Assembly (NCBI GenBank): GCA_905178155.1
Contig: CAJINV010000016.1
Location: 620,001-684,000, forward strand
DNA: 64,000 nucleotides
Direction: 5' to 3'
Source: Amoebophrya sp. A120
Lineage: Eukaryota > Protista > Dinoflagellata
Below the pieces are notes generated by a model. That model made no database searches. It was not told where the DNA came from and saw only the letters and a program-made list of their open reading frames with translations. This document shows, in pieces, positions 1-64,000 of the stretch (its first letter is position 1; each line of letters begins with the position of its first letter). A program made the position numbers and the translations under genes.

Positions 1-3000
1 TCAGATCTGTTTAAGAACTGCTTGTGTTGGTCGAAAACCCGTCTCGCGTCGCTACGGAAAGCATTATACGTGTTGCTATTCACGTATTCACTCATCATTT
101 TATTGTTCACAAAACCGAGCTCGCTCGTCAACCCTAACCGCAGGAAAAACCACTCGGAATCGGGTAAGTGCGTTCCGTAGAGTTCCGGATCGGGGGACTC
201 ATCTAGCATAGAAATCAGCGCCTGCAAAAACTTCCCGAGCATGTCCCGAATCTGCACGGAATCCATTACACCGTCTTCCAGCTCGGGTTTGGGGAAAAAG
301 CAGTCTCTCTTGTGGCATTTCAGATCCGTTTCAATATCTTGAATCGGGTCCCGTTTGATCCCCGCCTGGTTCGCGAGATCCTCAATTTCCGGCGGTAACG
401 CGCCGGGCACAGCAGCCAACACCATCGGGTTGAGCTGAATCTTGTGCGCCGCGGTCCTCGCGGCGGGTGGTGACCGGGGGTGTGTCGTAGTCATTTTCGA
501 GGGCGTCGAACTGCTGTGGTACAGGCTCGCACCGGCAACTCCCCGGCGGTGCGCCGGATGCACGGCACCATTATGGGGTAGTGTGGATGAGGGTTGTATC
601 GTAAGGAAAAATCCTCCCTCCCCATATTGAAAAGGTATGTTTCCGGAAATTTGTGTTGCTGATTTGAGATCACAAATCACCTTCGTCGTGCAAGAAGACA
701 AGGGCAGAAGCTTCCGCCCCATTATGGAAGCGATTTGTCATGCTGTTGGGCCTAAAGGGGAGGCGTTTGCCATGCTGAACAACTAGACCCATACGCCCCT
801 ACCTAGCCTGGGGGCCTGGCCGCAGTGCCTCCCTGCAATACAAAGCTGATTTGTGTACACAAACCCAGCATCAGAAGTTCCGTTTTGATATGGGGAGGGG
901 GGATTTTTCCTTTCGATAGGTTGCTCGGGGGGCCCAGCTGCCCCAACTACAGCCCGCGAGGTAGTAGACCGCTGCTGCTGCCCTCGCTCTACTGCCGGCT
1001 GTTGTTCACCTGCAGGCCCGTGCCGCCGGTAGTAGAGTTGCTGCTCTAAAGGGAGGCGCTGCACCCTTTGCGGCATAAAGCTCCTTGGTGGCGCCGCGTG
1101 CGAGAAGATACCCTGGCCTGATTCCTCCTCGTCATCAAAGAGACTCGAAGTTGACCCCCTCTGATACGGCTCGTACGCACGACCTTGGGGACCGCCAGAA
1201 AAAGCTGCACCGCCCCGAGCGAAACCTGCTGAAGCTCCACCTCCCCCGTAGTTCATCGTGTTCACAACTGCTGCACCACCACCAGTTTTCGACCCGCCAA
1301 ACGTTGCTGTCATGACGCCGCCCTCCTGCTTTTTCTGCTTCAAAAAATCGGACTCCATCTTCCGCTTCATGCGTCCCATCATGCGGTTTTTCAACGTGGA
1401 AAAATCCTTGTAGAAGTTCTCCATATCAACTGCAAATATGTCTGGGTCTGGAAGATTGCCAAGCTTGTCATGCATATTCGGCATGGCCCATGGTGCCTGT
1501 AATGCGTGCCCTAGCATCACTGATTTTTAGAGGACTTCCTGATGCCTTTTCCGCATCACAAATGCTCTCTCCACGTAGCACAAAATCGACTCCTCTTGCT
1601 GCTCATGCAATACAGATTTTTTTCCAAATGCAAACACCGCATCACAAGTTGCAACCTTCCAGACCCAGACACTTTTGCAATGCATACTCCACCCCGGTCG
1701 ACGATTCGATCGCGGACCGGATGGAGTCCAGAGTCCCCACAATCACGTATGAAATGCAAATATGTCTGGGTCTGGTAGGATCCGAACTTGTGATGCGTGT
1801 TTCGGATCCTACAAAGATCTGCGATGCATAACGTGCAAAAGGTGCCCACTTCTGGCCATGCTGAGAGGGCACTTCTCATGCAGAATACGCATCACCAAGG
1901 AGCTGCAGAGCCTGTGATGCTAGGCCCTGCATTCCAGACGTGGGGGAGCTTGGAAAAACTGCATGACAAATCTCGGAATCTCCCAGACCCAGACATTTTA
2001 GCATTTGATATCACGTACGATTTGACGAAACTTGGCTCCACTAAAGCGTGAAACACCGGTTTATCGTCGTCGTCCTCGTCCGAATCGAGATCATCGTCCG
2101 TCTCTAACTCCGTGTCGAGTAGGTCGTCTTCGTTCTCCTGGTTATTGTTCCTTGTACCATCGGGAGTGTGACGACCACCACCACTACCTCCTCCGCCATT
2201 AGAACTCAACGCAGACTGACTGGTCGCGGGCGACTGAATTTTTTTCAGATTCGTACTCCCCCCGATCGGAATTTGCAGGCCGAGAACCACAGAGGAGGTG
2301 TGCGTCTCCGTTGGTGTTAAGACGGAACCTCCTTCTTTCAACATACTTTCCCCCGCCGTACTCCCCTTCGGCGTCGTTCTGGGTGTGGTGTTCTTGGAAG
2401 ATTTTTTACTACCTTTTTTACCGCTCTTGTTACCTGTCCAGCCGGAAACCGTGGACTTACTCGACATCAAGTCTTGGTCTTCAGCGTGAGAAAAACCGTT
2501 ACCATCTTCGTCTCCACCAGCGGAGTCGTCTCGGTCGTCTCGCTTCGACGATCTCCGACTGTGAAAAGCCTGTCGCGGCTTCCCGCTGAAGAACGCATCT
2601 GAACCGCCGCGCCAGCAGGCGACGCGGAACTGATAAGAGACAGCTTTGTGGTCGCCGGGGACCCCGGAGGATTGTTCTCTGCGCTTGTAGTTCGGGGTCT
2701 TGGCTTTGATAGCTGACTTTTTCGGAGGTGGAGGTGGGACGGTGGAAGTAGTACCTGCTGCGGTCGCGGCGGGAGTTGTCTTCGCCGTGCTGGCTGCAGC
2801 AGGTTTATGTCCTTCTGGACCACCGTGCTTCGCTTGTCCTGCACTTTTGTTCCCTGCAGCGAAAACCGTTGGGAAGCTTCGTGAAATTTTTGTCGGAGCT
2901 GCTTTACTACCTGTAGCCTGCGGGGGCTTCACGACCGACGCAGCAGTAGTGCCAACACCACCTCGTCCTCCCACAGGCCTGTTCTGCTGCTTGTTAACCT

Positions 3001-6000: not shown

Positions 6001-9000
6001 TCACTCCAGAGCTGGCCTCCATTTGGTTTCGAATCGAAAAACCTTCCCCGCATGCTATGGCCCCGCCAGGGCCCGCGCCAGGGACGGACCCTTGGGAGCC
6101 CCAAATCGGGCCCATAGCATGCGGGTTGGCTTTTTGCTTTCGGCGGACTTTGTTTCTTTGTTTTTTTTTTGGCAAAATGCCGCATCTTCTGGCCTTCAGT
6201 CCGCCTCTGAAGTGGCGGACTTTGGTCGCGTCTTTTGCGAGGCCTGGATGTGGGCCAAAATGAGGCCCATACTATGCGGATTCGCTGTCTTTTTCGGAGT
6301 GCTGCTTTTTGGGCGTCCCTTTTTGGGCGCCCCAAATCGACGGAAACAGATGCGGCGGGCGCCTCAGAAGGGCGCCCCTTTTGCCGGCTCCGCTGCGTCG
6401 TTTTATCAAGCGCGAATCGATAGAATTGGCTCGGGCTTTTTTGACAACAAAGCCCCGGCCGCTTGATAAGTGGGAATCTTTTATGCTCAAAAACACCTCC
6501 GGCCACTTGAAAACTGCCAGTCGTTTTGGATAAGACATGTCAAAAAGATCGCTAGATTAGAACGTTCGTGACCTCACTACATATTACAACCTTCTCCCTG
6601 TTTTTCAACCACGTCGGCACGAGCAGCAATTCAGCGAGAATCCACTCCAGTGCCGTTAGCCAAGGGAGTCAAGTTCAAAAAGCGCGCAAAGTTAGTTCAT
6701 TCAACCAAGACACAGAGCACCAAGCTGTGGCAGGCCGTAGAACCAAAAAAATTTCGCGCGCGCTGCGCGCGCGCATTCACTCACCCCATACGCAGCCAAT
6801 GGCGTTGCATCGATTCGAAGGCAAACGAGCACCACCGCAAGCCCGTTGACTCATCGAAGAAAATTTGAAGTGGCCACTTAAGCCTTCCCTCATCGAAGGA
6901 AAATCGAAGTAACCACTTCAACTCTCCCCCATCGAAGGAAATTTGAGATGGCCACTTCAACTTTCCCTCATCGAAGGAAAACTGACACGACCCCTGCAAC
7001 TTTCCCTCATCGACGGGGAATTGAAATAACCACTTCGACTTTCCCTCATCGAAGGAAATTTGGAGTGGCCATTTCAACTTTCCCGCATCGAAGGAAAATT
7101 GAAACGACCGCTTCAACTCTCCCCCATCGAAGGAAATTTGAAATGCCCACTGTAACTTTCCCCCATCGAAGGAAACTTGAAGCGCCCACTTTAACTTTCC
7201 CTCATCGAAGGAAATTCGAAGTGGCCGCTTCAACTTTCCCTCATCGAAGGAAAATTGAAATGACCATCTCAACTTTCCTTCATCGAAGGAAATTCGAAGT
7301 GCCCACTTGAACCCTCCCTCATCGAGGGAAAATTGAAAAGCCCGCGTGGGGGACACGCATGCAGGAATTTTTAGCCCCCTAGATGCCACCTGTCGGTGGC
7401 CCCCACAACCCTCGGAGCCCTCACCCTCTTCAACATGCCGAGCCTTCCGGCAGCCCTGGCCCAAAAGGAAAAAAAGTGGGGCCGCGCCGGAGGGGGGGGG
7501 GAGCAGGTTCCAAAACGGCCACCCAGAAACGCGGCCATAGCGTGCATTTTGCATGTAATTTTAGAAGGGGCAAAATGAAGGAAAATTATCTTACTCCCTT
7601 CACTTCCTTGGCTCCCTTTCAAGTTTGACTCCCTTGTTTATAAAATGTCCTATTATTCCCTTCTCCCTGTTTTTCAACCACGTCGGCACGAGCAGCAATT
7701 CAGCGAGAATCCACTCATGTTGTGCCAACAATAGCCGCGTCCGCGGAGGTAGTGAGGTCATGGCGGTCTTTTTGTCTTCGCGCCAAAAAGGACGCAGCTT
7801 CTCTGCCCACTATACCATCGCGAGTAATCTTATGCACGACGGCACGGCGGTCGCTAAAAATCTCACTCCAGAGCTGGCCTCCATTTGGTTTCGAATCGAA
7901 AAACCTTCCCCGCATGCTATGGCCCCGCCAGGGCCCGCGCCAGGGACGGACCCTTGGGAGCCCCAAATCGGGCCCATAGCATGCGGGTTGGCTTTTTGCT
8001 TTCGGCGGACTTTGTTTCTTTGTTTTTTTTTTGGCAAAATGCCGCATCTTCTGGCCTTCAGTCCGCCTCTGAAGTGGCGGACTTTGGTCGCGTCTTTTGC
8101 GAGGCCTGGATGTGGGCCAAAATGAGGCCCATACTATGCGGATTCGCTGTCTTTTTCGGAGTGCTGCTTTTTGGGCGTCCCTTTTTGGGCGCCCCAAATC
8201 GACGGAAACAGATGCGGCGGGCGCCTCAGAAGGGCGCCCCTTTTGCCGGCTCCGCTGCGTCGTTTTATCAAGCGCGAATCGATAGAATTGGCTCGGGCTT
8301 TTTTGACAACAAAGCCCCGGCCGCTTGATAAGTGGGAATCTTTTATGCTCAAAAACACCTCCGGCCACTTGAAAACTGCCAGTCGTTTTGGATAAGACAT
8401 GTCAAAAAGATCGCTAGATTAGAACGTTCGTGACCTCACTACATATTACAACCTTTTCCCTGTTTTTCAACCACGTCGGCACGAGCAGCAATTCAGCGAG
8501 AATCCACTCCAGCGCTGTATAACCTGCTCAGCTGTTACAATCTCAAACGTTACAACAGAGTGTGGAAATCTGTGATGCAAGAGTGCATGTTCTAGCCAAT
8601 TCTGATAAGATTGTGCATGACAAGTTCCGGAGTCCCAAACCGCACTACAATCTGGCGAAATTTGTATTGCAGAAAGTGGAACCCTCTGCGAGTCTGTCGT
8701 GCTCATCATGCAGCACAAGTCTCAAATTCTATTGTAACGTTTGAGATTGTAACAGCTGAGCGGGCTATACGCCGTTTCTTCGTTGCTTTCCTTCCTCGGG
8801 AAGTTGAAAACGGAGAAGGTAAGTGTGTTGAAAAGAAAGGTTGAGAACGTGTCGAAAATGGCCGGTTTTTTTCCGGGTTTTGCCGTCGTGGTATCAACAC
8901 TTATTCCTGTTTGTACTTGCGCGGCTTGATGTTCTGTGGCCGTCGCGCCTGGTGTAGTAGTCCCATCTTCTCCTGCAGGCTCTCGTTCTACTTCTGCAAG

Positions 9001-12000
9001 AACCGTTGCATGATCTTCAGCTTGTCCTTCGTCTTCATCCGCGACGATGTTGTCCTCGTGAAGCCCATCAGCTTGCTCCCTTCCCCCGGACGAGGAAAAT
9101 TCCCAACTAGCGGCGTTCGCGATCTGCAACCGCTCTTGCTTGGAAACCCACTGCAATTTTGTCCCGACAAAGTCTCTCGCATTTTGCCACTTGATCAGCG
9201 TGAAAACAAGTTCTAGGAACTCCGCAAGAACCTCCAGTTCGCCTGTCAGTAGGTCCCAAGCAGCGTCAAGGTTTACGCCCCCGGAGGGCAGAGGGGATGG
9301 AGTTGGACTAGCATGTTGCTCCCCCTGTGCAGCTTTGTTCTGCTCGCCATCGTTGCCATCCTCATCTTTCCTCGACACCTCTGTCGCTGCCTCCTGACTT
9401 TGTTCTTCGCCTTTTGTTTTCTGCGCAACTGTGATTTTCGTTTTCAGCTTCGTCCGCGCAGCCTTTATTTTCGCGCTTGCCACCGCGCACTTCCGCAAAT
9501 TTTCGTCTTGAAAGACCTGGGCCTTTGCGTTGGAAATAATCCCAGAGACCCGGGCCCGAAGGTCGGATTGCTCGATTGTGGTGCTGTATTGCAGGGTACC
9601 ACTGTCGGTGGTGGAGAAAAGTTTCGGATAGGCCTTCTCGAGAACTCTAATTGCCTGAGTCAATGGGGAAGGAACGGTCTTTGTACTATGTTCTTGTTCA
9701 GTTTGCTCCGTGACAAGCTTGCGACGCGCCGGCGGCTGCTGCACTCCTTCTCCAGTGCCTGCTGGGTTGACTTTGACATCACTACCTGGCTTTTTACCAG
9801 TTCTCACTACTTCTACCACTCTGGCAGACTTCCTGGCCGCCTCTAGCACGTCTTCCACCTGTTCGATTCTAACCTTCCGGGCGGAATTATAACTGTGGCC
9901 AAGTCCACGTCTTGCACTGCTAGTATAATACGCCCGCCCTGGGAAAATCTTCAAATCCTGCGAGAAAAACCACGGGTCGCGGAGGCCGTGCGAAGACGGG
10001 TTTATTTCGTTTTCCTCGCTTGCAACATCAAACAGCTTCCATTTCTTCCAGTTCTTCTGGAGAAACTGTGCGTCGTCGGACTGGCACAGGAAAAGCAGCA
10101 TTTTTCGGATGTGAAAAATGATGTTTTGCGTGAATTCGTCTAACTCTTTCTCCAACCCCCTTTCGTGCTCGACCCGAAGCATTTGCCTGCCTCCGATGCT
10201 GTTTGACAATCTTTCTGTTCTTTCAACGGTTCTTGTTCCCCCACCTGCTTGCGCTCCTTGTCCTCGTTGCATGATCTTTACTTTCTGCGCCGCCAATAAA
10301 GCTTGTTCCCGTTTCTTCTTCGCTTGCGCTTTCGCGGCTTTACTTTTTGCCTTCACTTGTTTCGCGGACTTCTGCTGGCTTTTTTTCTTCTTCGCCGTAT
10401 TCTGTTCTTTAATCGTACTCGCGATGTCGACAGTTTCTTGCATGTACTGCTGCAATTTTCGAAATCCCGTCAAGTACTCCTTCAGGGCTTCCACCCGCGG
10501 CACCGCGATTCGCAAGAACTTGCTACTTCCAAGGTTTTTGGCGTCACGAAACGGAGCGAAATTATTGTCCACCCCAGCATCCCTGTCATGCAGTTCAGCA
10601 TGTGCAGCCGAAGTGGTCTCTTCATCAACAACATAAATTCCACCCAACCTCTCCGACACCTGCACCAATTCCCCGATCGACTTTCTTGGTAAGTGAAACT
10701 TCAAGAAGTGCAACTCGTCCAAAAAGTTCCGCTGCTCGCGCTGCAGGTACGCCAGCAAGGCGTATAGCGGAATCAGCAGTAGAAATACCATCAAGCTGAC
10801 TCCTATAACCCCGGGCCGCGCCTCCATCACGAGCTGCTTTCTAGTAACTTTTAGTACCTCCTTTGGACGATCATCTGCCTTCTTCGAAGAGCCTCGGAGT
10901 AGGTCGGACGCCCGAGCGCCTCGCTCTTGTTCCCGTGAGGCGTTCTTGTTGCCAAGATTTTCCAGGTCGTCGGGATCTTCGGGGCCGTGGCCGTTTTGAT
11001 AACTATCGTGCAACACACCGAGAAGGTAGTCCGAGTCGAGAATGCGATTCAGCTCCCACTGCAGAAGAGCCGCAGAGTTGCTGGGGTCCTCGGTATTGTC
11101 TATTTCTCCATTGTCCTCAGGAGGGGCAGAGGTGTAGTTGTGGCTTTGGAGATAAGTTTTGTCGTCGCTATTGTTCTTCCCTTCTGCTGCTCCCGCGAGA
11201 AAGTTCTTCCGGCCACGTCTCAACTCCTTCGAGGGGCCCCAAAAATTTTCGCCTGGATCATAGCTACCGTACTCCAAGTCGCCTAAAGACCCGTTATTTG
11301 GTATTTTTGCCAGCGCGGCCGCGGAAGAAAAATCTGCATCCGACAAATCTTCGCTTGGGGTCGGCTGCAATTGCCTGTTCATTGCTGCCAAGCAAAAATG
11401 CTGCTCCACAGCATCATGATTACCCCTTCTAAAGGGGTTATTTGCCGTGAGAAACTCGATTCCCTTCTCATCTTCCGGTTGCAGGAGTGGCTGATTTTTA
11501 GTTGTACTACCAAGACCCCATTTGTCTTGCATACCTGGCTCTGCACGGCCTTCTTGTTCTTCTTCACATGGCACGTCGATCAGTACGTGGTCCGGCTTGC
11601 TTTGTTCCTCGTCCTCAAACTCTGTCTTATCCGAACCCTCCGTGCTGGAGCTGGAGTCTGAATCCATTTCTGCGTCTGGAATTTTGATAAAATCATCTGG
11701 AGCGCAGTTTTGATTTTCATAGTCGGAGGACATGCGTCCTCTCGGTCCGCTCCTATGTAGTTCGCTTACTTTCCGATGACATTTTTCAGCCTTCTCCGAG
11801 AAATTATCTGGCGGGAGTAGCAGCTCCTTCTTGTTTGATGCACTTACGTTGCTCAACACATCTGCTGATCCTTCTGCCGGAAGGGGGGACGTCGAGCCAG
11901 ACGCGCGAGACGAGCCTTTGTTAAGTCTTTCATCCGCTGGAGCCACTAGTTCTTCACCATGCTCAACAACATCATCTCCCGGCTGCTGCTTCATCTCTGC

Positions 12001-18187: not shown

Positions 18188-19298
18188 TTAATACCCCTCG
18201 CGGTATTCGCTCGCGTTGAAATTGAGCACGCGCCCTTTCTGGTCCATTTTCGGAATTGGGACGATCGGGACTTCTCTTGCAGGCCGAAATGGCTTATCAA
18301 ATGTAAAAATGTCTGGGTCTGGAACAAAGCAATCTGTCATGCTTAACAGACTGCGCGACAAAGCAATCTGTCATGCTAAATCTCAATCATATAAAAATCT
18401 GTGTTGCATGATTCCCAAAAGCTGTTCGCTTTTGACCTATATCGAGAGGCAGTTTCTCATGCAGGATAGGCATGATAGAACGCTCACAGAATCTGTCATG
18501 CTATGTCCTGCATACCAGACCTCATGGGTCATGCAAAATATGCATGACAAACGCGGCACTCTTCCAGACCCAGACATTTTTGCATTTCATATGGCTCGGG
18601 CGGGTACATTTTCTGTTGTATAATTGCATATCGATTCCTACGATTTTTTCGTATTGCATAACAGCCAGAAATACCTTAATTTCTCATGCACCGGTCCAAG
18701 CACTATGTATTTCATGCAATCGCCTTCAACCACAAAAGTTGAAAAATACGTTGGTGACAATATCATGTCGTTTCACGCGTTCCGGATTCTCCGCAACTTC
18801 CAATTTCCAATACTGATCCTTGTAACCCACCAAATTTGCCATGTTGGTATCCGAAAATTGTTGCGTTGTGACGCCCGCGGGTCTGTGATTTTTTGGAAGA
18901 TCATGTGTGTTCGCATCAAGAACAAAGTTCTCTGGAGGGAACGAGAGAAACTACATTCGAATCGAAACTCTTGCAGTGTGAAATCCAAATTCATCCTGTC
19001 TCACACAACAACGACGACCAAAAGGTTGCTGTAGAGGAGCAGCCAAAGGCACATCTACACGACCGTGCTTCAAATACCTTTGGTCGATGGTGTTCTCCAC
19101 CGTCGGTCCCTTCAGTTTGTGTGGTTCCTTGGGGAGAAAGAACAAATTTTTTCTCGTCTGGTAGCGCCCGGAGCCGCGCAGGGTGGTCTCCGCGCCCGGT
19201 GGGTACCGGTGGTCCGCGAGCGGGTACAGTTCCGGAAATCCGTCCGCTGGGAAGGCGGTCGGTGGCTTGCTCGCGGAAGACGAGGGCGCTGCGGCCAT
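18188..19298 (-). CDS. Small hypothetical protein (two GT-AG introns plus one IR intron)
   Basis: MAAAPSSS...; exon ENFVLDANTHDLPK...DIVTN; KMYPPEP|FRPAREV...YREGY* after removing 18295-18591. Confidence 0.65.
18295..18591. mobile_element. IR-intron family A with internal duplication
   Basis: DR tggct/tggct; aaagcaatctgtcatgct appears twice. Confidence 0.92.
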
Positions 19299-53400: not shown

Positions 53401-56400
53401 AACCGGACTTTGCAACTGCAAGTCGGACCAGCAGATGCGGAGGCGCCGGGGCCCGGCGCCTCCGCGCGGACCATCAACTGGACTTATTTGCAGCTGCAAG
53501 TCGGACCGGCAGTTGGGGAGGCGCCGGGGCCCGGCGCCTCCGCTCGGACCAGCCGGGCCTTGCCGCTGCAAGTCGGGTCAGAGGATGGGAAGGCGCCGGG
53601 GCCCGGCGCCTCCGCTCGCACCAGCCAAGCTTTGCCGCTGCAAGTCGGGCCGGCAGATGGGGAGGCGCCGGGGCCCGGCGCCTCCGCTCGGACCAACCGG
53701 ACTTTGCAGCCGCAAGTCGGACCGGCAGATGGGGAGCGAGGCGCCGGGGCCCGGCGCCTCCGCTCAGACCAACCGCGCTCTGCAGCCGCAAATCGGACCG
53801 GCAGATGGGGAGGCGCCGGGGCCCGGCGCCTCCGCTCGGACCAACCGCGCTCTGCAGCTCCAAGTCGGGCCGGGAGATGCGCACCCGGCGCCTCCACTCG
53901 GACCAGCCGGGCTTTGCGGTTGCAAGTCGGAGCGGCAGATGGGAAGGCGCCGGGGCCCGGCGCCTCCGCTCGGACCGCCCGGGCTTTGCTGCTGCAAGTC
54001 GGGGCCGCAGATGCGGCTCCAACCGGACTTTGCAGCGGCATGTCGGACCCGCAGCTACGGAGGCGCCGGGGCCCGGCGCCTCCGCTCGGACCAACCGGAC
54101 TTATTTGCAGCTGCAAGTCGGACCGGCAGATGGGAGGCGCCGGGGCCCGGCGCCTCCGCTCGCACCAACCAAGCTTTGCAGCTGCAAGTCGGACCGGCAG
54201 ATGGGGAGCTCGGACCAGCCGGGCCTTGCAGCTGCAAGTCGGACCGGCAGATGGGGAGGCGCCGGCGCAGCTGCGCCGGCAGAGGAAGTGCCGGTGCTGG
54301 TGCTCTGAGTGGTGCCAGCAGATTCACCGGCCGGCGCAGCTGCGCTGGCAGGAAGATCAGCTGCTGAGCTCGGAGCTCCAGCATCAAACAGCTGCTTCGC
54401 TTGCCAACGCAGCTGCGCTGGCAGAGCAAGTGCTGGCGCTGGAGCTCTGAGTGGGGCCAGCAGATCCAGGGAAGTCAGCTGCTGAGCTCGGAACTCCATC
54501 CTCACACAGCTGTTTCGCCTGCCGGCGCAGCTGCGCCGGCAGACGAAGCACTGATGCCGGAGCTCTAAGTGGGGCTAGCTAGCAGATCCACCTGCCGGCG
54601 CAGCTGTGCCGGCAGGGAGGTCAGCTGCTGAGCTCGAAACTCCAGCATCAAACAGCTTTTTCGCCTGCCGGCGCAGCTGCGCCGGCAGAGGAAGTGCTGG
54701 TGCTGGAGCTCAGAGTGGTGCCTGGCGCAGCTGCGCTGGCAGGAAGATCAGCTGCGGAGCTCGGAGCTCCAGCATCAAACAGCTGCTTCGCCTGCCGGCG
54801 CAGCTGCGCCGGCAGAGAAAGGACTGGCGCTGACGCTCTAAGCGGGGCCCGCAAACCCACCTGCCGGCGCAGCTCGCTGCGCCAACAGGGAGACGAGTAG
54901 CTGCTGGGCTCGGAACTCCAGCCTCATTCAGCTGGCCATGTATGATGTGCCATGTATGATGTATCATGTATCATGTGCCATGCATGATGTGCCGTGTATG
55001 ATGTGCCATGTATGATGTGCCATGTATGATGTGCCATGTATGATGTACCATGTATGACGTACCATGTACCGCGCACCGGGTACGCTGTGCCATGTATGAT
55101 GTATGATGTATGATGTACGAGGTACATACATCGCAGAATTTGCGATGTATGATGTACAATGTATGATGTACAATGTATGATGTACAATGTATGATGTACA
55201 ATGTACAATGTATGATGTACAATGTATGATGTACAATGTATGATGTACAATGTATGATGCACAATGTATGATGCACAATGTATGATGTACAATGTATGAT
55301 GTGCAATGTATGATGTGCAATGTATGAGAGTGAGGTCGTTCTCCGCAAATCTTCCATGTATGATGTATGAGTTTTGCGATGTATTTCTGCCAATACATCG
55401 CAAAACTCATACATGCCTCTCGCCCCCACCATATTGAACATGGCTCTGGGGTCTGTCATGCACGTTGCCCAACAGCCCCAATGCTCTGTGATGCAGAAGC
55501 TCACTTTGTCATGCAGAATATACAACACTGAGGCAGCTCTAAAACTTGTCATGGTTGGCGGCCAATTGAGGCGTCCTCGTCCTCTTTCTCGACCAGCATC
55601 ACAAGTTTCCAGACATCCAGGAGGGATATTTGGCGCACTGCATAAACGTTTCTCAAGGGTGGCGAGCTCGTAAACGGGTACGACGACGCCGTCGAGAGCA
55701 AGGATACGAACAAGCGCCGGGCGGTGGTGCCCTGCGTGGGGGTGGGGCTCACGGCCCGGCTGGAGACCTTCTCCGAGGAAGATATGTTCCCCGACGGCTT
55801 GGTCAGGTTCGTGAAGGTATAATGGAAAATGAACATGTGCCTATCTATGTAGTAAAAAGATGAATATTAACAACAAAAAAATGTGGCCACGTTTCAGTTT
55901 GAATATGGGTTTGCATGTAGCTGCACGAAGACCAGCACATGAAAAAAAAGCTGCAAAATAAATGCTTTGTGCTTCTCGTGTGTGGAGGTCTGGGTTGCAA
56001 AAAACTTCCTGCTGATGTTGAAAAAGGTTGGCCTCTTCTTCGGCTGCGGGTGGATACTACAGTGAAAAATGCCCCCACCCCTGAACTTGCGAGCATTGGT
56101 ATTGCAAACCCTTCCAATGGAAACATTCCCCGTCTTGCATATATCAGCATCACAGATTTTCCATGCTGAATAGCTCAAATACAAATTTGTGGCGCAGAGG
56201 AGCCCAACAGCAGGCGGATCTGTTATGTGAGAGATACCTTGCGCGCTTAGATTCTGCATCAGAAAGGACTCGCAGTCCTTTCATGCAAGACAAAAAGCTT
56301 CCATTCGGAAACTTTGCATGAGAAATTCCGGGGTGGTGGCGTTTTTCATTGTAATAGTGGACGCCGTTTAACGACTTTTCCTACCCGCCACGGGTCGTCG

Positions 56401-59400
56401 AGTTTTATTCCAGCCGGGAACTGCCAAACTGGCCGCGGGCCGCGCACGGGCGCATTTGGCTGGCCCCGGAAACCCGCGTCGGCGGGCGGCTCAAGGCTCG
56501 ATTCCTAGCGGGCTACGCAGGCGGGCCGGGGGCGATGCGGCAGGGAATGACGGGCGCGTCTACGGTGCATCCTGTCACCATGCTGAAGAACCGGCAGAAT
56601 GACCAGAGCGTGGGACGGATCGTCGCTACGATTGAGACGGATGTGCAGAAAAGCGAACGCATGCTGTCCACGCTCCGGAGCCGCAACAGGGTCAACAGGG
56701 AGGGCGTATCAAATGCAAATATCTACTCCGGGTGGTCTGGAAACTTGTGATGGTAAAATGTGGATGATTGAAACACTTTCGAATGCAACCAAGCATGACA
56801 ACTTTCTACCGGCGCGCTCTCGTCTCATATGCAGCTCGCGTGAGAAGCTGCGGTTTTGTATGACGCACGAGCCTGCGTTTTGTGTTGGTCATGCAAAAAA
56901 GTACAGACTCCACAAGAAAAATGTAAGACCAGCATTAGCACAAGTTCAAGTTCGAACGTTCCAGATCCCTGCATTTTATTTTATGCAATGCATAGGTCGT
57001 GCGGGCCACGGAGGCCGTCATGGAGCTGAAGGAGGAGCACCAGTGCGACCCGTCCGCGGCGCTGCGGCGCATCGTCTTCGAGGTCAGCGCCGTATGACAG
57101 TGCACAACACAACTCGTCCCCTTCCACTTCCTCCTCATCTGTACTATGGCAAGAACTACAGCAACACAAGCAACGGCAGCTACGTGGCTTCCGCATGACA
57201 ATAAATCTGCGCTTGGGTCAGAGTACTGCTTGAGCTTGTTCCAAAAGTTGGCATGCAGACACTGCCTAAGAGCAGGATGTCGACTTGGTACTATTTTGCA
57301 TCACAAATGAGGGGAAGTAGGGGGGGTTGGGCACTCTGATGCGCCGGGACGTCTACGGAATCGGTCACGGACACGGCGACCGGGACCACCTACGATGGGA
57401 AGTGGCGGACCGTGATGCAGCTGCCGCACGTATCTTAAGTAAACAGGGCCGCATCGTCCCACGACATTCGTCAGGCAAATTTGCAGTTACAGAAAGAATT
57501 GTATATCCGCATCCCCATGAGTGGAATTTGTAATGCTGTAAACAGGACAAGCAGACGCCTTTGTGATGCTGCTGCACTTGCTCTATTGCATTAAAATACA
57601 GAGTGAAAGAACTTGTCATGCGTGACTCCCAAGAAATGTTCTTGCTTTGTAAAAATGAGGGACCCCGATCGCGATCTTGACTCTGGTAAGGTCGTGGGGA
57701 AGATGTTTTTACACAGGACAGCGCGCCGAGTCTTTCCAGGCGCCTTTCTCGATGTTTGGGTTTGTATCCTGTGCAAAAGTATCGTACTCGTATAAATGCA
57801 AGTCTTCCGTGACAAATATTTTTCTGAAGGTAAAACCGCACTACAAATTTTATTTCTCATGCTGGGAAAATTTGTAATGCATTTATACGAGTACGATAGT
57901 TTTGCAATTCATAGTTTGACCTGATCAACGACTTCGTCCTGTCGCGGTACGTATCAAATGTAAAAATGTCTGGGTCTGGAAGATTGCCAGGTTTGTCATG
58001 CACATTTTGCATGACTCCTGATGTCTGTGATGCATACCCTAGCAATACAGATTTTCTGGGGGCTTCTTGATGCCTATTCCGCATGACAAATTCCTTCTCA
58101 GCGTAGCAAAAATTGCATTCCGTTTGCTACTCATGCAATACAGATTTTTTTGGAATCTAGATACAGCATCACAAGTTGCATTCTTTCAGACCCAGACATT
58201 TTTACATTTGATACTCGGGGCAGACGAACCACGTCGGACGGCAGGTACTGTACACCGTGTCCACGGATTTGGGAATCATGACGCAAACCTATGCTGAGCA
58301 AAAATGACTCCACCCCATAGTCAAGTTGGTAAATCTGCAACACAAATCCCCAAGTCTTGGGAGTTGTGCATGACAAGTTTTCATCTGCAGTGTAGTGGTG
58401 GTTAGCAAGGGAAGCCGCATGACAAACCCACTTTTTCATTCTGTTTACAGCATGGCATCATGTGCCAAAACACGACTGGAAATGCCTCTCATGGAGATGC
58501 GCACTACAAACGTTTCGGTCATTGCGCATTTGCATGACAGCCCTGGGCGGCTGGGGACGTCTTTACATAGGATAAAACCGGCAGCGACCTGCGCGTGTGG
58601 GATCACCGGGTGTCTCTCTCGTCCCTGACCGCAGAGTTTATCTCGCCCACCGCGTTGTCCGTCCGTGCCTCGGCGTCGCACCCACGGCTGCGAATCGGCT
58701 GCGAATTTGATGGCAACGAGCAAACCTACCCCATGCTGTATCCTATGTAAAAACGTCCCCACGCCATAGTCAAGATGGGAAATCTGCAACACAAATCTCC
58801 AAGCTTTGGGAGTTCTGCATGACAAGTTTCCATCTGCAGTGTAGTGCTGGTTAGCAACGGAAGCCGCATGAAAAAGCCATTTGCTCATCCTGATTACAGC
58901 ATTACAAATTCCAAAACACAACTGGAAATGCCTCTCAAGGAGATGCGCATTACAAATGTTCCTGTCATTGCACATTTGCATGACAACTCTGGGGTGGGAA
59001 CGTTTTTACACAGGATATGCTGCTGGCCACGCCGGAGTGCCAGCTCGAGGCCGCGTGCCCCCAGGTGCTCACGTGGCAGACCCGCCGGTCGGAGCCGGGC
59101 GTGGTGATATCAAAGTGAAAAATCCCCCCTCCCCATATCAAAGCCGAAATCTGTGATGCGGGATTTGTGTACACAAATCTAGCAGTAGAGGACTGCAGGC
59201 AGATGCAGCGCCTGAGTAGGGGCGTTTTGCTGTAGGCACTTAGCAAGGCAGGCATATCCTCTGTAGGCGATACAGCATCACAAAGCCCTGCGAAACGCGG
59301 CCGATTCTCTGGCTTTGCCCTCTTGCAATACAGGGACGATTTGTGGTTACAAATCAGCATCGCAAACTTTCAGCAGTGCCCCTTTTTGGTACGGGGAGGG

Positions 59401-62400
59401 GGGATTTTTCATCACAATAGGCGGCCTGTGCGCTGCTGGGCGATCCACTGAATAAGGTAAGCACGATATCCCACAAAAAAACTGTTTCACTGTGATGATC
59501 TTGCAAGATCTGCGTCACAAGTTTGTTACACATGACACAGAAAATTTGCCATGCTCGCTTCCAAAGGGAAAACACCGCTAAAGAGTCGAGGTCTTGCAGG
59601 TGTGGCGAGACAAATAGCTCTGTGTTTCATTCTATGCATCACAAGTTTACAGTGAAACAGTTTTTTCTTGCGATACACGACTTACCGCGTCACCCGGGTG
59701 GAGTTCGTGAACACCGTATCAAATGTAAAAGTGTTTGGGTCTGGAAGATTGCAACTTGTCATGCTAAATCTGCAGCATGCAAAAATCTGTGTTGCGTGAT
59801 TACCAAAAGTCGTCCAGTTTTGACCAATATGGGAGGTAGTTTCTCATGCAGGATAGGCATTAGAAAGGTCTCGCAGAATCTGTCATGCTAGGTCCTGCAT
59901 TCCAGACCTCATGGGTCATGGAAAAGCAGCATGACAAATCGCGCATTCTTCCAGACCCAGACATTTTTGCAATCCATACACCGTGAGTGGCAACAATCTG
60001 CTGGTCCAGACCCGCCACACGGGCTTCTATGGATTGTAAAAATGTCTGGGTCTGGGAGGTTGGAACTTGTAATGCTAGCTTTCCATACCTAGAAAATCTG
60101 TATTGCATGACCAACAAAAGTCGCAGCCTCTTTTGTCATGCAAAAACGCAGCTTCTCATGCGGATTGCCTATGAGAAAGCGTTTTGGGAAGTTGTCATGC
60201 CGGACTGCATTCGGAAGTGTTTTCATCATGCACATTTTAGCATCACAAGTTTCCAGACCCAGACATTTTTACATTTGATAGCTTCGACCAGGTGTCGACG
60301 GCGCACGGAAAAATGATCTACGACCAAGTCTCTACCGTTTCCGCTCGCATCTACGGTTCCCTAGGCGTGGTCCGGGAGAAGAAGCGCCCGGTCAAGATCA
60401 CGGTTTCGCTCCGCGCCTTCTCCGGTACTGCAAGCTCGCGCGGGGCTGCGTCGACCCTGACATCCCCGGGCGCGGTGTCGTTTTCCGGGAACGCGGAAAG
60501 CGCGCGACTGCGGCAGTCGGCACTGCTGTTCACGGATCAGAAAATATCCGGCGACGCCGCCCTCGACCTGAATCTGGACGACGCGGACCTCGCGGTTCTG
60601 GTGCCCATGATCTGCGGCACCTACGAGCTCGCCCCCGTGCTGCGGAACGGGTTCCCGTGGTACCGGAAGAGGCTTTCCAGCTTGAAAATCGCGGACGTGT
60701 TTTTTAACACGACAAAACGCACGTGGCATATGAACGCGTCAGGATTCAAATCGTCAAAGTTGAAATAGTTTCTCATGCATAAAATGCAACCCACAGAATG
60801 CCTGTCTTGCAGAGTAGGCAAGTGAAGCAGATTGTAAGCCTGTTGAGGGGTAGAAACTGCGCTGCTACGACAAAAGACGTCTTCCTTACCCAAACAGCAT
60901 GACAAACTGGATCTCGGTTCTACCCAAATTTGTCATGCGCCACTTCGAAACTGGGCCACAACTTTCATCACTTTTATGCATTACAACTTTGTGGATTTCA
61001 ATCCTGACACATCCATATGGCAGCTGTGGCTGAAGACGCCGATGAGGGACGGCGCAACGACGGATGCGGCGTGGTACGAAACCATGGACGGGGGGAGAGG
61101 AATGCCAGTTAGTTCTACCAGCACAGGAGGCGCGACGAGGACTACTTCTCCAGGAGAACCCATACAACCAGTGCCAGTGGCTAGTACAATTGGTGCCGCG
61201 TTGGAATCGAGTTCGAACTACGAGTATGCCGACGTCGAAGACCTGTCCAGCAGTGGGGGCAACGAGGTCCAGGACGTGCTGCTCACGGAGTCGGAGGTAC
61301 TTACCGGCGCGCACAGCCAGCCAACAACGCCCGATCAGGCACAGTGGGACGTTTTGCAGGTGAAACTTACCGCGGACACGCGGATCCTGGAGCGAGCGCT
61401 TATCGAGTGCCGCATGTACAACCTGCCCCTGGAACCTTGCCACGAGGATGTAGTGCGGAACGCCGCGGACAGCGGCAGCTTCTGCTTTCTTTTCCAGGCT
61501 CCCGTCGGTTTTTTTCTCGCCGTATTCATTGCAAATATGTCTGGGTCTGGAAGGATGCAACTTGTGGTGCTACCTTTGGACTCTACATGAAATCTGTATT
61601 GCATGAGCAGCAAAAAAGGCGCAATTTGTGCTACAGATCGAGGGCATTTCTCATGCGGTATGAGCATCAGAAAGCCCTCGCAGAATCTTTGATGCCAGGG
61701 CGTGCATGACAGACCTCTTGGGTCATGCAAAATCAGCATGACAAACTCCTGCATTCTTCCAGATCCAGACATATTTGCATTTGATACGCCGACGGGTATC
61801 GGCACCGCGTGGTCTGCCGGGTCCGCGACGCCGAGTCGATGGTGCTGGGCCGCCCCAACGAGGTGGTGGGCGCGGTGGTGGTGGCGCGCCCGAAATTCCG
61901 CGTCACACCGGATTTGGTGGAGATGGGCACCGAAGTGGACGGGACGATGGACAAGCTGTACCGGTTTCAAGGCAGTACGCCGGGGCTTACCGTCGTCTTC
62001 CACTTGCTCAGCGAAGAGCAGTGGGACACCAGGCGGTGGTATGCAAAGAAAAACGTGTTACACTTAGTACTACACAAGTTGTGTTGCACGACGAGGTCAC
62101 AACAAGCAAGACAGACCTCTGCATAATTGCAAGTTTTGGTTTTCGTCGTCGTAGTACAGGGAAAAAACACAGCACATAGAGAGTTCGTGGCTCGCCTGAT
62201 AGTTTCCCTGCACTACCTCCAAACTATCAAAGAAGCTCGTGCAACTGCTCGCGTTGTGTTTTTGAAAAAGGTACAACGATTTGTGTGTAAGTGTAACATT
62301 TGAAGCGCGTTTTTCTTAGGATAGTTCGCTGGTGGGGCTGCCGCTGAAGCCGCGGACCATCTACGCCGACCTGGGCGGAGAGCGTGCTCCAGGTAGAAAT

Positions 62401-64000
62401 GCAGCGGGCGGGAGTATTTTTGACAAAAATGGAGCCGCGTCCGAAAGGAGCGATAGTGCTGGCACGTCGAAAGATTCTGCGGCAGCTCGTGAGTCGTCCA
62501 CCAGGAAAACGACGTGGACGCTGGCGGGGAATTTAGGCGTATCCGCCGCGAATCAGTTCCGGGGTAGTCCGGGCACGACCTACGTCTTTTCCGCCGTGCC
62601 GCATTCGGGGGATTCCGTCGGGAACCCCGTTCGGTTCGTGTTGTCTGTGCCCTTTTCGAATTCCCTGATTCTTCGTTACTACGGCCTTTTGGTCATTATC
62701 GTGCATAGCCTGCTGACGCTGTTTCTCATGGCCGGGCCCGTCTACGCGTTTTCCAGGGGGGCGAGTTTGCGGGTCAGCTTCAACCGGCTGCGACGGGTGA
62801 TCGGCGCCAGTGGGCAAATTGCGTTGACGGCAGTGGCGGTTTTGGGCAAGGGCGCGCTTTATATCCCAAAAAAAAGAGCACGCAGGGCATATTTGTAAAG
62901 CAAAAACAAATACACAGAAGAATCCGCATTGCGCATTTTCAACAGCATCCTATGCTGGGCTCCCTCATGATAGATTTGTCTGTTAATTTTTTCTGTCATT
63001 ACACTGCCTGCCCTTTTTCGTGGGATACTGTACGGGTGGGTCCTGCACATCTGGGCGACCGAGCAGAAGTCTCCCTACATCTTCGTGTTTCTTGGAATAG
63101 ACGTGACTGCCGTTTTATGCAAAAAATAAAAATGCTTGCAAAACAGTATCGACGCGGTAGTAAAGAAATTTTTGCATTTTACAAAAGTAAATTTTGTCAC
63201 ACGATGAAAAAATAGAATTTGTGATGCTGACTGAAAAACACCCAAGACAAGAGGTGGCAATTATGTACGGGAGATTTATTGTGATATGCATAAATTTCAA
63301 TCAAGTACTACCACGTCGGTACTATCAGATACAACTTTTGCGCAGCATGCGTTTGTCTCTTCCTCGCGCGACGGGTGGTAGTTCAAATGGCGCCGTCTAT
63401 CAAACGTAAAAATGTCTGGGTCTGGAAAAGTACAGACTTGTCATGCATATTTTCCATGACCCATGAGGGGTGGAATGCGGGACCTAGCATCACAGACTCT
63501 GCGAGGTCTCTGTCATGCCTGTCTTGCGTGGGAAACTCCCTCCCAACTTGGTCGAAAGTAGACAGCTTTTGGCGCTCGTGCAACACAAATTTTTGCATGC
63601 TTCGAATTTAGCATGACAAGTCTACACTTTTCCAGACCCAGACATATTTGCAATGCATACCGTCCTTTTTCTCGCAATCTGCCGCGGAGTCTAAGGTTGA
63701 ATCGGAGATCCGCCGCATTGTTGCAGTGGGAGCGCAGCAGGAGATTATGGAATGCACATATGTCTGGGTCTGGGAGACTGCAAGATTTGTCATGCTAATC
63801 TGGCATGACTCTGAACTCTGTATTGCGTGGCCGCAAAGAGCTCCGCCGGCCTGTCATGCAAAGGCGCAGGTTCTCATGCTGAGTACGCAACTCAGAACCA
63901 CGGCAAAACTTGTCATGCTGTGCAGCGCATTGCAGTTTTTTCACTATTCCTTTCCTTGCATCACAAGTTTCCAGACCCAGACACATTTGCATTTGATAGA
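47432..64000 (+). CDS. Very large hypothetical membrane protein with 29 IR introns and one GT-AG intron (~55818-56026); continues beyond window; start uncertain (could be ~47000)
   Basis: One continuous frame is recovered across all 29 elements when element+5 nt is removed; hydrophobic segments near 47590 and 62670-63390. Confidence 0.8.
47884..48196. mobile_element. IR-intron, divergent family B
   Basis: Flanks cgccg/cgcgc; frame restored. Confidence 0.8.
48341..48648. mobile_element. IR-intron family E (TATGGA..GTCAGGATTGAAATC); right end ACA
   Basis: DR tcgga/tcgga. Confidence 0.88.
49154..49443. mobile_element. Degenerate IR intron
   Basis: TAT...ATA; flanks gagcc/tcccc; frame restored. 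Confidence 0.6.
49742..50029. mobile_element. IR-intron family B
   Basis: DR gccga/gccga. Confidence 0.92.
50413..50675. mobile_element. IR-intron family A
   Basis: DR gtctg/gtctg; close relative of 1748-2010. Confidence 0.92.
50724..50907. mobile_element. IR-intron family C-like
   Basis: Flanks aagcg/aggcc; frame restored. Confidence 0.7.
51308..51540. mobile_element. IR-intron family A
   Basis: DR tgacc/cgacc. Confidence 0.85.
51949..52255. mobile_element. IR-intron family E
   Basis: DR gcgca/gcgca. Confidence 0.88.
52310..52571. mobile_element. IR-intron family A
   Basis: DR tccag/tccag. Confidence 0.92.
53360..54925. repeat. GC-rich minisatellites (72-bp unit, then a unit built on the palindrome gccggcgcagctgcgccggc)
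   Basis: gcaagtcgg at 53496, 53568, 53640, 53712; hairpin ggaggcgccgg-ggc-ccggcgcctcc in each unit. Confidence 0.9.
54935..55325. repeat. 14-bp tandem repeat atgtatgatgt(aca/gcc); degenerate counterpart at 53055-53360
   Basis: Directly visible periodicity. Confidence 0.92.
56055..56356. mobile_element. IR-intron family B-like (left end TAC)
   Basis: DR gtgga/gtgga. Confidence 0.85.
56707..56994. mobile_element. IR-intron family A (diverged)
   Basis: DR gggcg/ggtcg. Confidence 0.82.
57093..57341. mobile_element. Degenerate IR intron (right end ATG)
   Basis: DR cgccg/cgccg. Confidence 0.7.
57431..57720. mobile_element. IR-intron family B (right end ACA)
   Basis: DR gcacg/gcgcg. Confidence 0.8.
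57765..57913. mobile_element. IR-intron family C
   Basis: DR gtttg/gtttg. Confidence 0.88.
57952..58213. mobile_element. IR-intron family A with decayed DR
   Basis: Intact TIRs; flanks gtacg/ctcgg. Confidence 0.88.
58290..58574. mobile_element. IR-intron family B
   Basis: DR aaacc/aaacc. Confidence 0.9.
58739..59017. mobile_element. IR-intron family B
   Basis: DR tgctg/tgctg. Confidence 0.92.
59108..59419. mobile_element. IR-intron family F
   Basis: Flanks ggtga/ggcgg. Confidence 0.85.
59467..59675. mobile_element. IR-intron family D-like
   Basis: DR cacga/cacga. Confidence 0.85.
59717..59978. mobile_element. IR-intron family A
   Basis: DR caccg/caccg. Confidence 0.92.
60028..60280. mobile_element. 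IR-intron family A
   Basis: DR gcttc/gcttc. Confidence 0.92.
60729..61017. mobile_element. IR-intron family E
   Basis: DR tggca/tggca. Confidence 0.88.
61523..61786. mobile_element. IR-intron family A
   Basis: DR cgccg/cgccg. Confidence 0.92.
62040..62323. mobile_element. IR-intron family D-like
   Basis: Flanks ggtgg/gttcg; frame restored. Confidence 0.75.
62862..63027. mobile_element. Short IR intron (tatcccaaaaaa / tttttcgtgggata)
   Basis: DR cttta/ctgta. Confidence 0.75.
63116..63349. mobile_element. Degenerate IR intron (right end ATG)
   Basis: DR cgttt/cgttt. Confidence 0.7.
63398..63659. mobile_element. IR-intron family A
   Basis: DR ccgtc/ccgtc. Confidence 0.92.
63746..63998. mobile_element. 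IR-intron family A
   Basis: TIRs intact; DR gagat / ga.. (truncated by the window edge). Confidence 0.88.

What the first reader, a model, noticed from the sequence alone, without database searches (positions are those of the whole stretch)
597..63998. One removal rule (TAT...ATA element + exactly 5 nt) covers 57 non-GT-AG transposon-like introns from at least 7 unrelated families
Seen: 57 elements, all inside CDS. TIR sequences are family-specific, but the termini are shared (TAT...ATA, with a few single-base variants) and each has a 5-bp direct repeat. At every junction I translated, deleting element+5 nt restores the frame, including inside conserved kinase (APECL|LTDG, GRY|VAIK) and TTL sequence. 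Only two (sense DR taagg at 40292, caagg at 25879) can be slid to give GT...AG. Known: IR/DR non-canonical introns were reported in Amoebophrya (Farhat et al. 2021); to my knowledge their removal mechanism is unresolved. Inference: a dedicated machinery reads a terminal stem plus the TAT/ATA ends, at RNA level or by programmed DNA excision, and a shared transposase making 5-bp staggered cuts spreads them. Two copies end in ACA, which hints at an integrase-type (TGT...ACA, Ginger-like) mobiliser.
Basis: partly seen in the sequence, partly recalled or inferred. Interest (0 to 1): 0.92.

Follow-up and report, generated by a model that had tools for sequence, protein, structure and literature searches.

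The report
Fixed-spacer splicing code in Amoebophrya introns
These are the already-described transposon-like introns of the marine parasite Amoebophrya A120; wherever the cut can be placed, they leave the transcript one base before their TAT start and four bases after their ATA end, likely cut by a modified spliceosome, which would make their unsolved removal mechanism testable.

Summary
Real, but the elements are published. The window encodes Amoebophrya sp. A120 proteins (100% identical). Farhat 2021 already reports A120 introners with TAT-starting inverted repeats and 3-5 nt direct repeats (DRs), with the intron borders left unknown.

I recover 60 elements; 39 of 59 scorable ones have a perfect 5-bp DR. 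Removal of element + 5 nt is backed by RNA-type contigs at 32 elements and by a public protein at 13 more. One (57952) fails: its transcripts hold 315 nt more than the window gives.

What is new: at 12 junctions whose two DR copies differ, only one cut fits all, after DR base 4 in the transcript direction. The intron is N-TAT...ATA-NNNN. At 62040 an equal-length GT...AG option is ignored. There is no preference for G at +1 or AG at the 3' end, but U at +2 is invariant (281 of 281), and 7 of 9 canonical donors begin GTAT.

A DNA-type run keeps the elements, so DNA excision is unlikely. The geometry parallels the Euglena code N3-CDG...CHG-N5-6. Catalyst: modified spliceosome about 50%, separate machine about 35%. 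No transposase was found; Ginger membership is not met.

The parts
597..2010 (-). 3 elements in a long minus-strand ORF: 597-918, 1424-1686, 1748-2010 (perfect DRs)
   Evidence: ORF evidence only
8518..14059 (-). 2 elements in a 1979-codon ORF: 8518-8769 and 13728-14059 (one DR mismatch each)
   Evidence: ORF evidence only
18295..18591 (.). family A element with perfect DR; host reading frame not resolved
21937..32077 (-). tubulin-tyrosine-ligase-family gene (= P0001, 1971 aa; begins upstream of 32077) with 13 elements: 22134-22394 (3' end AGA), 22444-22708, 22755-23034, 23748-23894, 23979-24237, 24919-25067, 25196-25407, 25578-25730, 25879-26119, 26174-26437, 26489-26697, 30112-31120 (nested insert), 31893-32077; and GT-AG introns 23258-23388, 24495-24636, 27789-28604, all starting GTAT
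   Evidence: model identical to P0001 over 1027 and 757 residues
31893..32077 (-). degenerate TAC...ATA element, DR copies AGCGA/CCCCC; only a cut after DR base 4 gives the public protein (element recognised after seeing the junction)
25879..26119 (-). element with sense DR CAAGG; GT...AG at the base-4 cut
35945..40640 (+). gene = P0121 (614 aa) with 6 elements: 36679-36930, 37217-37385, 37468-37635, 37681-39384 (nested insert), 39641-39889, 40292-40573 (GT...AG at the base-4 cut)
   Evidence: (predicted 2100 nt = contig 2100 nt)
37217..37385 (+). element with DR copies TGTGG/CGCAA; contig piece ends at DR base 4 (cut 4); P0121 allows cut 3 or 4
37468..37635 (+). element with DR copies TGATC/TCCTC; P0121 allows cut 3-5
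42114..45225 (+). protein kinase gene with 6 elements (42199-42483, 42589-42760, 43315-43575, 44487-44661, 44713-44855, 44949-45135) and 5 GT-AG introns (42868-42962, 43124-43247, 43645-43800, 44049-44208, 44298-44410)
   Evidence: (predicted 2964 nt = 2964 aligned)
42199..42483 (+). DR copies GTACG/GTGCG; joint 42196->42487, cut 3-6
44487..44661 (+). TAT...ACA element; joint 44484->44665, cut 3-4; also readable as GC...AG (recognised after seeing the joint)
44713..44855 (+). TAC...ATA element; joint 44711->44860, cut 4-5 (recognised after seeing the joint)
46931..63998 (+). one long gene running out of the window, with 29 elements: 47884-48196, 48341-48648 (ACA), 49154-49443, 49742-50029, 50413-50675, 50724-50907, 51308-51540, 51949-52255, 52310-52571, 52881-55644, 56055-56356 (TAC), 56707-56994, 57093-57341 (ATG), 57431-57720 (ACA), 57765-57913, 57952-58213, 58290-58574, 58739-59017, 59108-59419, 59467-59675, 59717-59978, 60028-60280, 60729-61017, 61523-61786, 62040-62323, 62862-63027, 63116-63349 (ATG), 63398-63659, 63746-63998; and GT-AG intron 55817-56026
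   Evidence: one 9160-nt contig of X3 covers 55646-62859 and extends on both sides
52881..55644 (+). 2764-bp element holding a nested tandem-repeat insert; still removed as element+5, keeping left DR base 1
   Evidence: (loose end at 55646)
56707..57720 (+). 56707-56994 (cut 3-6) and 57431-57720 (cut 3-5)
57952..58213 (+). exception: probably two family A elements collapsed into one; transcripts hold 315 nt more than the element+5 model
   Evidence: 637 observed vs 322 predicted
62040..62323 (+). DR copies GGTGG/GTTCG; joint 62038->62328 (cut 4-5), although a cut at base 1 would give GT...AG with the same length
62862..63027 (+). DR copies CTTTA/CTGTA; joint 62859->63031, cut 3-5

Best explanation
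The elements are short inverted-repeat insertions with 5-bp target duplications, likely non-autonomous DNA transposons, that are absent from the transcripts; where the cut can be placed it lies one base before TAT and four bases after ATA, and it is most likely made on the pre-mRNA by a modified U2/U5/U6 spliceosome guided by the paired ends. Steps: (1) Insertion duplicates 5 bp (shown; the enzyme is inferred). (2) The arms pair in the transcript in either orientation (predicted). (3) The cuts sit at fixed distances, N|UAU...AUA-NNNN|, and 1+4 = 5 removes exactly one duplication, restoring the coding sequence (shown at 12 informative junctions, one of them on the minus strand). (4) The 5' site would be read like the host's own GUAU donors with +1 freed, and the 3' site by distance instead of AG (inferred). 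Odds: RNA-level removal at a fixed register about 0.9; spliceosomal catalyst about 0.55 of that.
For: Register: allowed cuts are {4} at 37217, {3-6} at 42199, {3,4} at 44487, {4,5} at 44713, >=1 at 51308, {1-6} at 52881, {3-6} at 56707, {3-5} at 57431, {4,5} at 62040 and {3-5} at 62862, {3-5} at 37468 and {4} at 31893. The only common value is 4, and 10 of 12 exclude the mirror-image cut.

RNA level: X1 and X4 have zero depth over 33001-35640 and 46201-46860 where X5 has 25-31. X1 and X4 also skip GT-AG introns. X5 pieces span 7 whole elements. Both orientations occur relative to the transcript (family A 13:9, family B 7:3). Arm positions 11-25 pair with mean p>0.5 in 39 of 55 folds.

Spliceosome-like: this register puts TAT at +2..+4, and 7 of 9 canonical introns found start GTAT. 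Both perfect-DR elements that can be GT...AG are so at this register. U at +2 never varies (60 of 60 here, 221 of 221 in the second assembly), while its pairing partner varies 6 times (sign test p about 0.03, by hand). U2, U4, U5 and U6 were reported in A120 and U1 was not detected (PMC7789003). A tunicate spliceosome handles mostly non-GT/AG introns (PMC13326754 passages).
Against: No G preference at +1 (21 of 57 vs 30% background, p=0.17) and no AG preference at the 3' end (4 of 57). The second assembly shows the same (G 70 of 221, AG 22 of 221).

Branch-like YTRAY is no commoner at 3' ends than at mirrored 5' ends (13 vs 12 of 59; 89 vs 95 of 221). The A at -7, invariant here, is G in 2 of 221 there, so my branch-A idea is not supported.

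At 62040 a GT...AG option is ignored.

The upper bound (cut <=4) rests on 3 junctions, two recognised after the fact and one of those also readable as GC-AG. The RNA data are contigs of one sample with kind guessed and no strand. The one raw-read RNA run laid (X9) gave 16 mostly partial reads. The public proteins may rest on the same transcripts. X5 also holds joined forms at three neighbouring kinase introns.
Confidence: 0.5

Rival explanations
1. Same fixed code, but a separate non-spliceosomal machine, as suggested for Euglena nonconventional introns: a protein binds the TAT/ATA stem base, an endonuclease cuts 1 and 4 nt outside it, and a ligase joins the exons, releasing circles or linear introns.
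For: Full freedom at +1, -1 and -2, and no branch signal. GT...AG ignored at 62040. Length from 143 to 2764 nt does not matter. The Euglena code 5'-N3CDG...CHG-N5-6|R has the same short-5'/long-3' spacer design, tested by knock-in, and circles are reported there (PMC12501133).
Against: It gives no reason why the register should match the host's GTAT donors (7 of 9) or why +2 U alone is invariant. No enzyme is identified. Euglena and Amoebophrya are distant, so it would be convergent.
Confidence: 0.35
2. Programmed excision from DNA (like ciliate IESs) in the transcribing stage.
For: TIR plus DR anatomy. X5 holds joined forms at 44484 and 44711. RNA and DNA runs come from different samples, so a stage-specific event is not excluded.
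Against: X5 spans 7 whole elements at flat depth and shows no joint at 42196. Its joined forms include the GT-AG intron at 44297, which points to an mRNA-derived copy. The register follows transcript direction on both strands, with elements in both orientations. Contigs of the RNA-type runs also cover element 57093 unspliced, though DNA in those runs could explain that.
Confidence: 0.05
3. An ordinary spliceosome uses nearby cryptic GT/GC/GA-AG sites, or the genes are silent pseudogenes.
For: 2 of 39 perfect-DR elements, plus 44487, have canonical-looking ends at the cut used.
Against: Joints remove exactly element+5, with non-canonical ends at most of the 20 directly seen sites. The models equal public proteins, and ortholog P0002 shows no indel at the well-aligned TTL junctions.
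Confidence: 0.03
4. Self-splicing or template-switch/editing-type removal driven by the element RNA.
For: Ends pair in 39 of 55 folds.
Against: Interiors of different families do not align, no Rfam match, and a 2.4-kb nested insert is tolerated. A reverse-transcriptase template switch needs the repeat, yet junctions with 1-2 of 5 DR matches are joined at the same register.
Confidence: 0.07

Closest known systems
Amoebophrya A120 introner elements / non-canonical introns (Farhat et al. 2021, PMC7789003)
   Same: Same organism and elements: IR motifs starting TAT, 7 variable bases, then AAA; DRs of 3-5 nt; RNA-supported; about 240 nt.
   Different: The paper calls the splice sites variable relative to the hairpin and the borders unknown. 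Here the duplication is uniformly 5 bp and the cut is fixed at N1/N4.
Euglena nonconventional introns, code 5'-N3CDG...CH'G-N5-6|R (Nomura et al. 2025, PMC12501133)
   Same: Paired terminal triplets, free spacers of fixed length (short 5', longer 3'), coexistence with GT-AG introns in one gene, MITE origin suspected, register found from non-slidable junctions.
   Different: Triplets TAT/ATA rather than CDG/CHG; spacers 1 and 4 rather than 3 and 5-6; no clear purine rule after the acceptor; excised form unknown here.
Fritillaria borealis non-GT/AG introns (Henriet 2019, seen only through PMC11282704 and PMC13326754)
   Same: Transposon-derived, non-canonical ends, coexist with older GT-AG introns; precedent for a relaxed U2-type spliceosome.
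   Different: Fritillaria keeps preferred dinucleotides (AG-AC, AG-AT) and U1; here the terminal dinucleotides are free apart from +2 U.
Ginger1 and Ginger2/TDD DNA transposons (Bao et al. 2010, PMC2836005)
   Same: TIR elements; TDD-4 and TDD-5 make 5-bp duplications.
   Different: Ginger ends are TGTNR, mostly with 4-bp TSDs and 40-270 bp TIRs; here TAT ends, arms of about 30 bp, and no transposase found.

Membership tests
Amoebophrya A120 introner elements | Host is Amoebophrya A120 | tested here: met
   P0001 and P0121, named Amoebophrya sp. A120, are 100% identical to window exons
Amoebophrya A120 introner elements | IR starts TAT, 7 variable nt, then >=3 A | tested here: met
   TAT in 57 of 60; A at arm positions 11-13 in 46, 49 and 55 of 57
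Amoebophrya A120 introner elements | 3-5 nt DR at the borders; repeated; removed from RNA | tested here: met
   39 of 59 perfect 5-bp DRs; 6 multi-copy families; 32 elements RNA-supported
U2-type spliceosomal introns | GT/GC...AG ends | tested here: not met
   G at +1 in 21 of 57, AG in 4 of 57; GT...AG ignored at 62040
U2-type spliceosomal introns | Branch-site consensus near the 3' end | tested here: inconclusive
   A at -7 in 60 of 60 here but 219 of 221 in the second assembly; YTRAY not sense-biased
U2-type spliceosomal introns | Lariat intermediate, snRNP dependence | not testable with these tools
   needs excised-RNA sequencing or inhibition
Euglena-type nonconventional introns | N3-CDG...CHG-N5-6|R signature | tested here: not met
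   signature here is N1-TAT...ATA-N4
Euglena-type nonconventional introns | Paired ends with fixed free spacers | tested here: met
Euglena-type nonconventional introns | Released as full-length circles | not testable with these tools
   no raw reads of this strain could be laid (X9: 16 reads)
Ginger transposons | TGTNR termini | tested here: not met
   sense 5' TGT in 0 of 60 here and 1 of 221 in the second assembly; 3' ACA in 3 of 60 and 2 of 221
Ginger transposons | TSD of 4 bp (5 bp in TDD-4/5) | tested here: inconclusive
   5 bp (208 of 278): fits TDD, not Ginger1 or metazoan Ginger2
Ginger transposons | Gypsy-integrase-like DDE transposase | tested here: inconclusive
   no Pfam hit in 3 ORFs from nested inserts or the duplicated block; no crude DDE motif in 156 loci, longest perfect-DR element 1031 bp; whole genome not available
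Programmed DNA elimination (IES-like) | Element absent from the expressed DNA | tested here: inconclusive
   present in DNA-type run X5; other life stages not sampled

The most novel reading that the evidence does not exclude
Amoebophrya A120 runs a second, non-spliceosomal mRNA splicing system that reads only a stem ending in UAU/AUA and cuts 1 and 4 nt outside it. It evolved independently of the Euglena system, and in both the two spacers add up to a transposon's target duplication (1+4 = 5 here; 3+5 = 8 in Euglena, my inference), so a whole transposon class is made silent in coding sequence.
Probability: 0.3. Interest if true: 0.9.

Novelty: new variant of a known kind. Interest (0 to 1): 0.56.

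Why it matters
More than 60% of A120's 66,565 RNA-supported introns are non-canonical, with borders called unknown and no known removal mechanism (PMC7789003). A single code, N1-TAT...ATA-N4, gives exact predicted intron ends. Lariat-versus-circle sequencing, inhibitor tests and reporter mutagenesis then become direct experiments, and annotation can be normalised. It would be a second fixed-spacer, stem-anchored splicing code after Euglena's, in a distant lineage. It also explains how transposons can fill coding sequence at no protein cost: the spacers sum to the target duplication. The elements themselves are not new.

Tried and rejected
- No whole genome is held, so no genome-wide transposase or snRNA search was possible.
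- No RNA holder was listed on record. Raw-read run X9 laid only 16 reads, 15 partial, so no strand, start or excised-intron data.
- Protein searches with exon 61018-61521 found no own protein (limited to 2000 aa, one weak hit), so junctions 47884, 50724 and 59108 stay unplaced.
- Branch-A-at-minus-7 idea: looked invariant in the window (Fisher p=0.036 on end variants) but was broken by 2 GTA ends in the second assembly; dropped as support.
- G enrichment at +1 in old elements (9 of 18 vs 12 of 39) was not tested further and is not claimed.
- My first end for 63116 (63292) and my reading of 57952 as one degenerate element were wrong; RNA corrected both. 57952 is left out of the register count.
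- Rfam: 0 matches. The family A arm pattern gave 0 matches in viral contigs.
- Earlier scan notes: none.
- In the second assembly, 57 of 278 elements were dropped (strand score under 5, or more than 2 DR mismatches) before counting end variants. One dropped row has a 5' AAT end.
Full report
OBSERVATION. An end-and-repeat search found 35 pairs with near-TAT...ATA ends, an exact 5-bp direct repeat and arm score >=8, against none in five shuffles. Arm profiles, relaxed searches, RNA joints and a public protein extended the list to 60 elements of 143-2764 bp. 51 have exact TAT...ATA. The variants, read in the sense direction, are 5' TAC (3) and 3' ACA (3), ATG (2) and AGA (1). 39 of 59 scorable elements have a perfect repeat. 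BLAST clustering of 59 gave six multi-copy families and 16 singletons, with the two large families in both orientations relative to the transcript (13:9 and 7:3). All share the TAT-N7-AAA arm. A TGTSWTGC motif occurs at 10.2 per kb in elements, 9.2 per kb in five kinase GT-AG introns and 0.26 per kb in exons (141 vs 5-10 in shuffles); three other GT-AG introns lack it. Removing element+5 opens long frames in every gene modelled. The host frame of 18295 was not resolved.

IDENTITY. TTL-family and unnamed-protein exons hit proteins named Amoebophrya sp. A120 at 100%. My spliced models equal P0121 (614 of 614 residues) and P0001 (1027 and 757 residues). These introns are therefore already in the public annotation. 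The ortholog P0002 (89% in the query exon) has no indel at the well-aligned TTL junctions; two or three junctions fall in gapped regions.

REMOVAL IS REAL AND AT RNA LEVEL. Runs X1-X4 (kind guessed as RNA; one sample) behave as RNA: X1 and X4 have zero depth at 33001-35640 and 46201-46860, where X5 has 25-31, and they also skip GT-AG introns. Element+5 is seen directly at 20 elements: 16 listed joints, 3 adjacent pieces and 1 loose end. Exact length sums cover 12 more: 2100 = 2100 and 2964 = 2964, 213 = 213, and 354 and 26 nt worked by hand from table 8. P0001 covers 13 minus-strand elements. That makes 45 of 60 supported; 13 rest on frames only, 1 is unresolved and 1 fails. The failure is 57952, where contigs hold 637 nt against 322 predicted: 315 nt, in frame, are missing from the window, most simply because two neighbouring family A copies were collapsed. 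X5 pieces span seven whole elements. Against a clean picture, X5 also holds short joined forms at 44297, 44484 and 44711. Because one of these is a GT-AG intron and 42196 is not joined, I read this as an mRNA-derived copy elsewhere (inference). X5 may be the assembly's own source and is not independent.

THE CUT CAN BE PLACED. Where the two repeat copies differ, the transcript shows which base it keeps. Counting the cut as 'after repeat base c' in the sense direction: 37217 {4}, 42199 {3-6}, 44487 {3,4}, 44713 {4,5}, 51308 >=1, 52881 {1-6}, 56707 {3-6}, 57431 {3-5}, 62040 {4,5}, 62862 {3-5}; 37468 {3-5}; 31893, on the minus strand, {4}. Only c=4 fits all 12, and 10 exclude the mirror register c=1. 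The intron is N-TAT...ATA-NNNN. Caveats: 44487, 44713 and 31893 were recognised after seeing the junction; 37217 relies on a piece end plus a length sum (P0121 allows 3 or 4); eight other degenerate elements, 57952 included, could not be placed. At 62040, c=1 would give GT...AG at the same length and is not used, so the cut follows the element ends, not the dinucleotides.

SECOND ASSEMBLY. A family A arm pattern hit 160 loci in metagenome contigs; all the listed ones are on JACKZZ01 contigs (organism not determined). The window's families recur there at up to 96% identity. Of 278 elements located from arm positions 4-30 only, 208 have an exact 5-bp repeat, none 4 bp and one 6 bp. A coding-strand model (50 of 51 correct on the window at the threshold used) oriented 221 of them: +2 U in 221 of 221, G at +1 in 70, AG at the 3' end in 22, YTRAY 89 vs 95 mirrored, and two GTA 3' ends. 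There are no RNA data for this assembly.

MECHANISM. Shown: the 5-bp duplication, absence from transcripts, and a fixed 1+4 register that restores the coding sequence whatever the element's family, orientation or length. Predicted: end pairing (39 of 55 folds); arm positions 4, 5 and 7 are often unpaired (17, 23 and 15 of 38) while positions 11-13 pair (34-37 of 38). Inferred: the catalyst. For a spliceosome: the register makes TAT positions +2..+4, the same as the GTAT start of 7 of 9 canonical introns; +2 U alone is invariant; U2, U4, U5 and U6 are reported in A120 while U1 was not detected, which leaves room for a stem-binding substitute. Against: freedom at +1, -2 and -1, no branch signal, and the ignored GT...AG. 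These fit a Euglena-like separate machine. I put the spliceosome at 0.5, a separate machine at 0.35 and DNA excision at 0.05. The mobiliser is unknown: no transposase was found in nested-insert ORFs or in 156 loci.

WHAT IS KNOWN. Farhat 2021 (PMC7789003; I saw the abstract, passages, sections 10, 11, 16 and 36, and supplement legends, not the figures) reports TAT-starting IRs, 3-5 nt DRs with a 5-bp example, 'variable' splice sites and unknown borders. Its unseen Figs 3 and S19-S25 may bear on how much of the register was visible. Gozashti 2025 (PMC12130899; passages, SI legends, 21 of 58 A120 rows of one dataset; files 13-14 not searched) lists 58 families with TSD calls of 2-5 or none and mixed splice-site models. 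It describes family 38 as reminiscent of Ginger but lacking its termini and TSDs. Nomura 2025 (PMC12501133; parts 1-2 of 6 and passages) defines the Euglena code and does not mention Amoebophrya. Also seen: PMC11282704 (section 6 and passages); passages of PMC2836005, PMC13326754, PMC12621601, PMC11453091, PMC12787238 and bioRxiv 2022.06.08.495308; PMC13149111 (term search, no mention). Henriet 2019 and Guminska 2021 were seen only as cited. Searches found no paper giving the N1/N4 register; the library lacks most subscription papers.

VERDICT. The elements are already known. The uniform 5-bp duplication and the fixed N1-TAT...ATA-N4 cut are, as far as these searches reach, new, and they turn an open question into specific experiments. 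New variant of a known kind; interest 0.56.

Noticed in passing
window 57952-58213: Transcript contigs hold 315 nt more than the element+5 model here; probably an exon lost by assembly collapse or deletion between two family A elements.
   Followed up: partly
window 5797-8518: Two 860-bp copies (99.3% identical) flank a 39-bp tandem array, and a 66-bp coding segment occurs four times. The long ORFs on either side overlap in that segment and may be one gene interrupted by a 2.6-kb block with long direct repeats; part of the block resembles the insert in element 30112.
   Followed up: no
window 44298-44859: DNA-type run X5 holds spliced forms of three neighbouring kinase introns at depth 52-61, about twice single-copy depth: possibly a partial retrocopy elsewhere.
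   Followed up: no
elements and kinase GT-AG introns: Motif TGTSWTGC in both orientations is about 40-fold enriched over exons in elements and in five kinase GT-AG introns, but absent from three other GT-AG introns: a transposase site or intron mark, or a sign that some canonical introns are old elements.
   Followed up: partly
family A arms, positions 4-10: The two arms of one element often carry different variants from a small shared set while positions 11-30 match, as if ends were mixed between copies.
   Followed up: partly
window 57093-57341: This element (3' end ATG) is covered unspliced by contigs in X2 and X3; weaker removal or DNA in the runs.
   Followed up: no
window 30112-31120, 37681-39384, 52881-55644: Other repeats are nested inside elements (the 37681 insert has X5 depth in the hundreds to thousands; the 52881 insert has about 410-bp inverted arms and tandem arrays) without blocking removal.
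   Followed up: partly
window 27789-28604: 816-bp GT-AG intron filled with a short tandem repeat.
   Followed up: no
L001-L076 (JACKZZ01 contigs): A second assembly carries the same element families at up to 96% identity, so the families are not confined to one assembly.
   Followed up: partly
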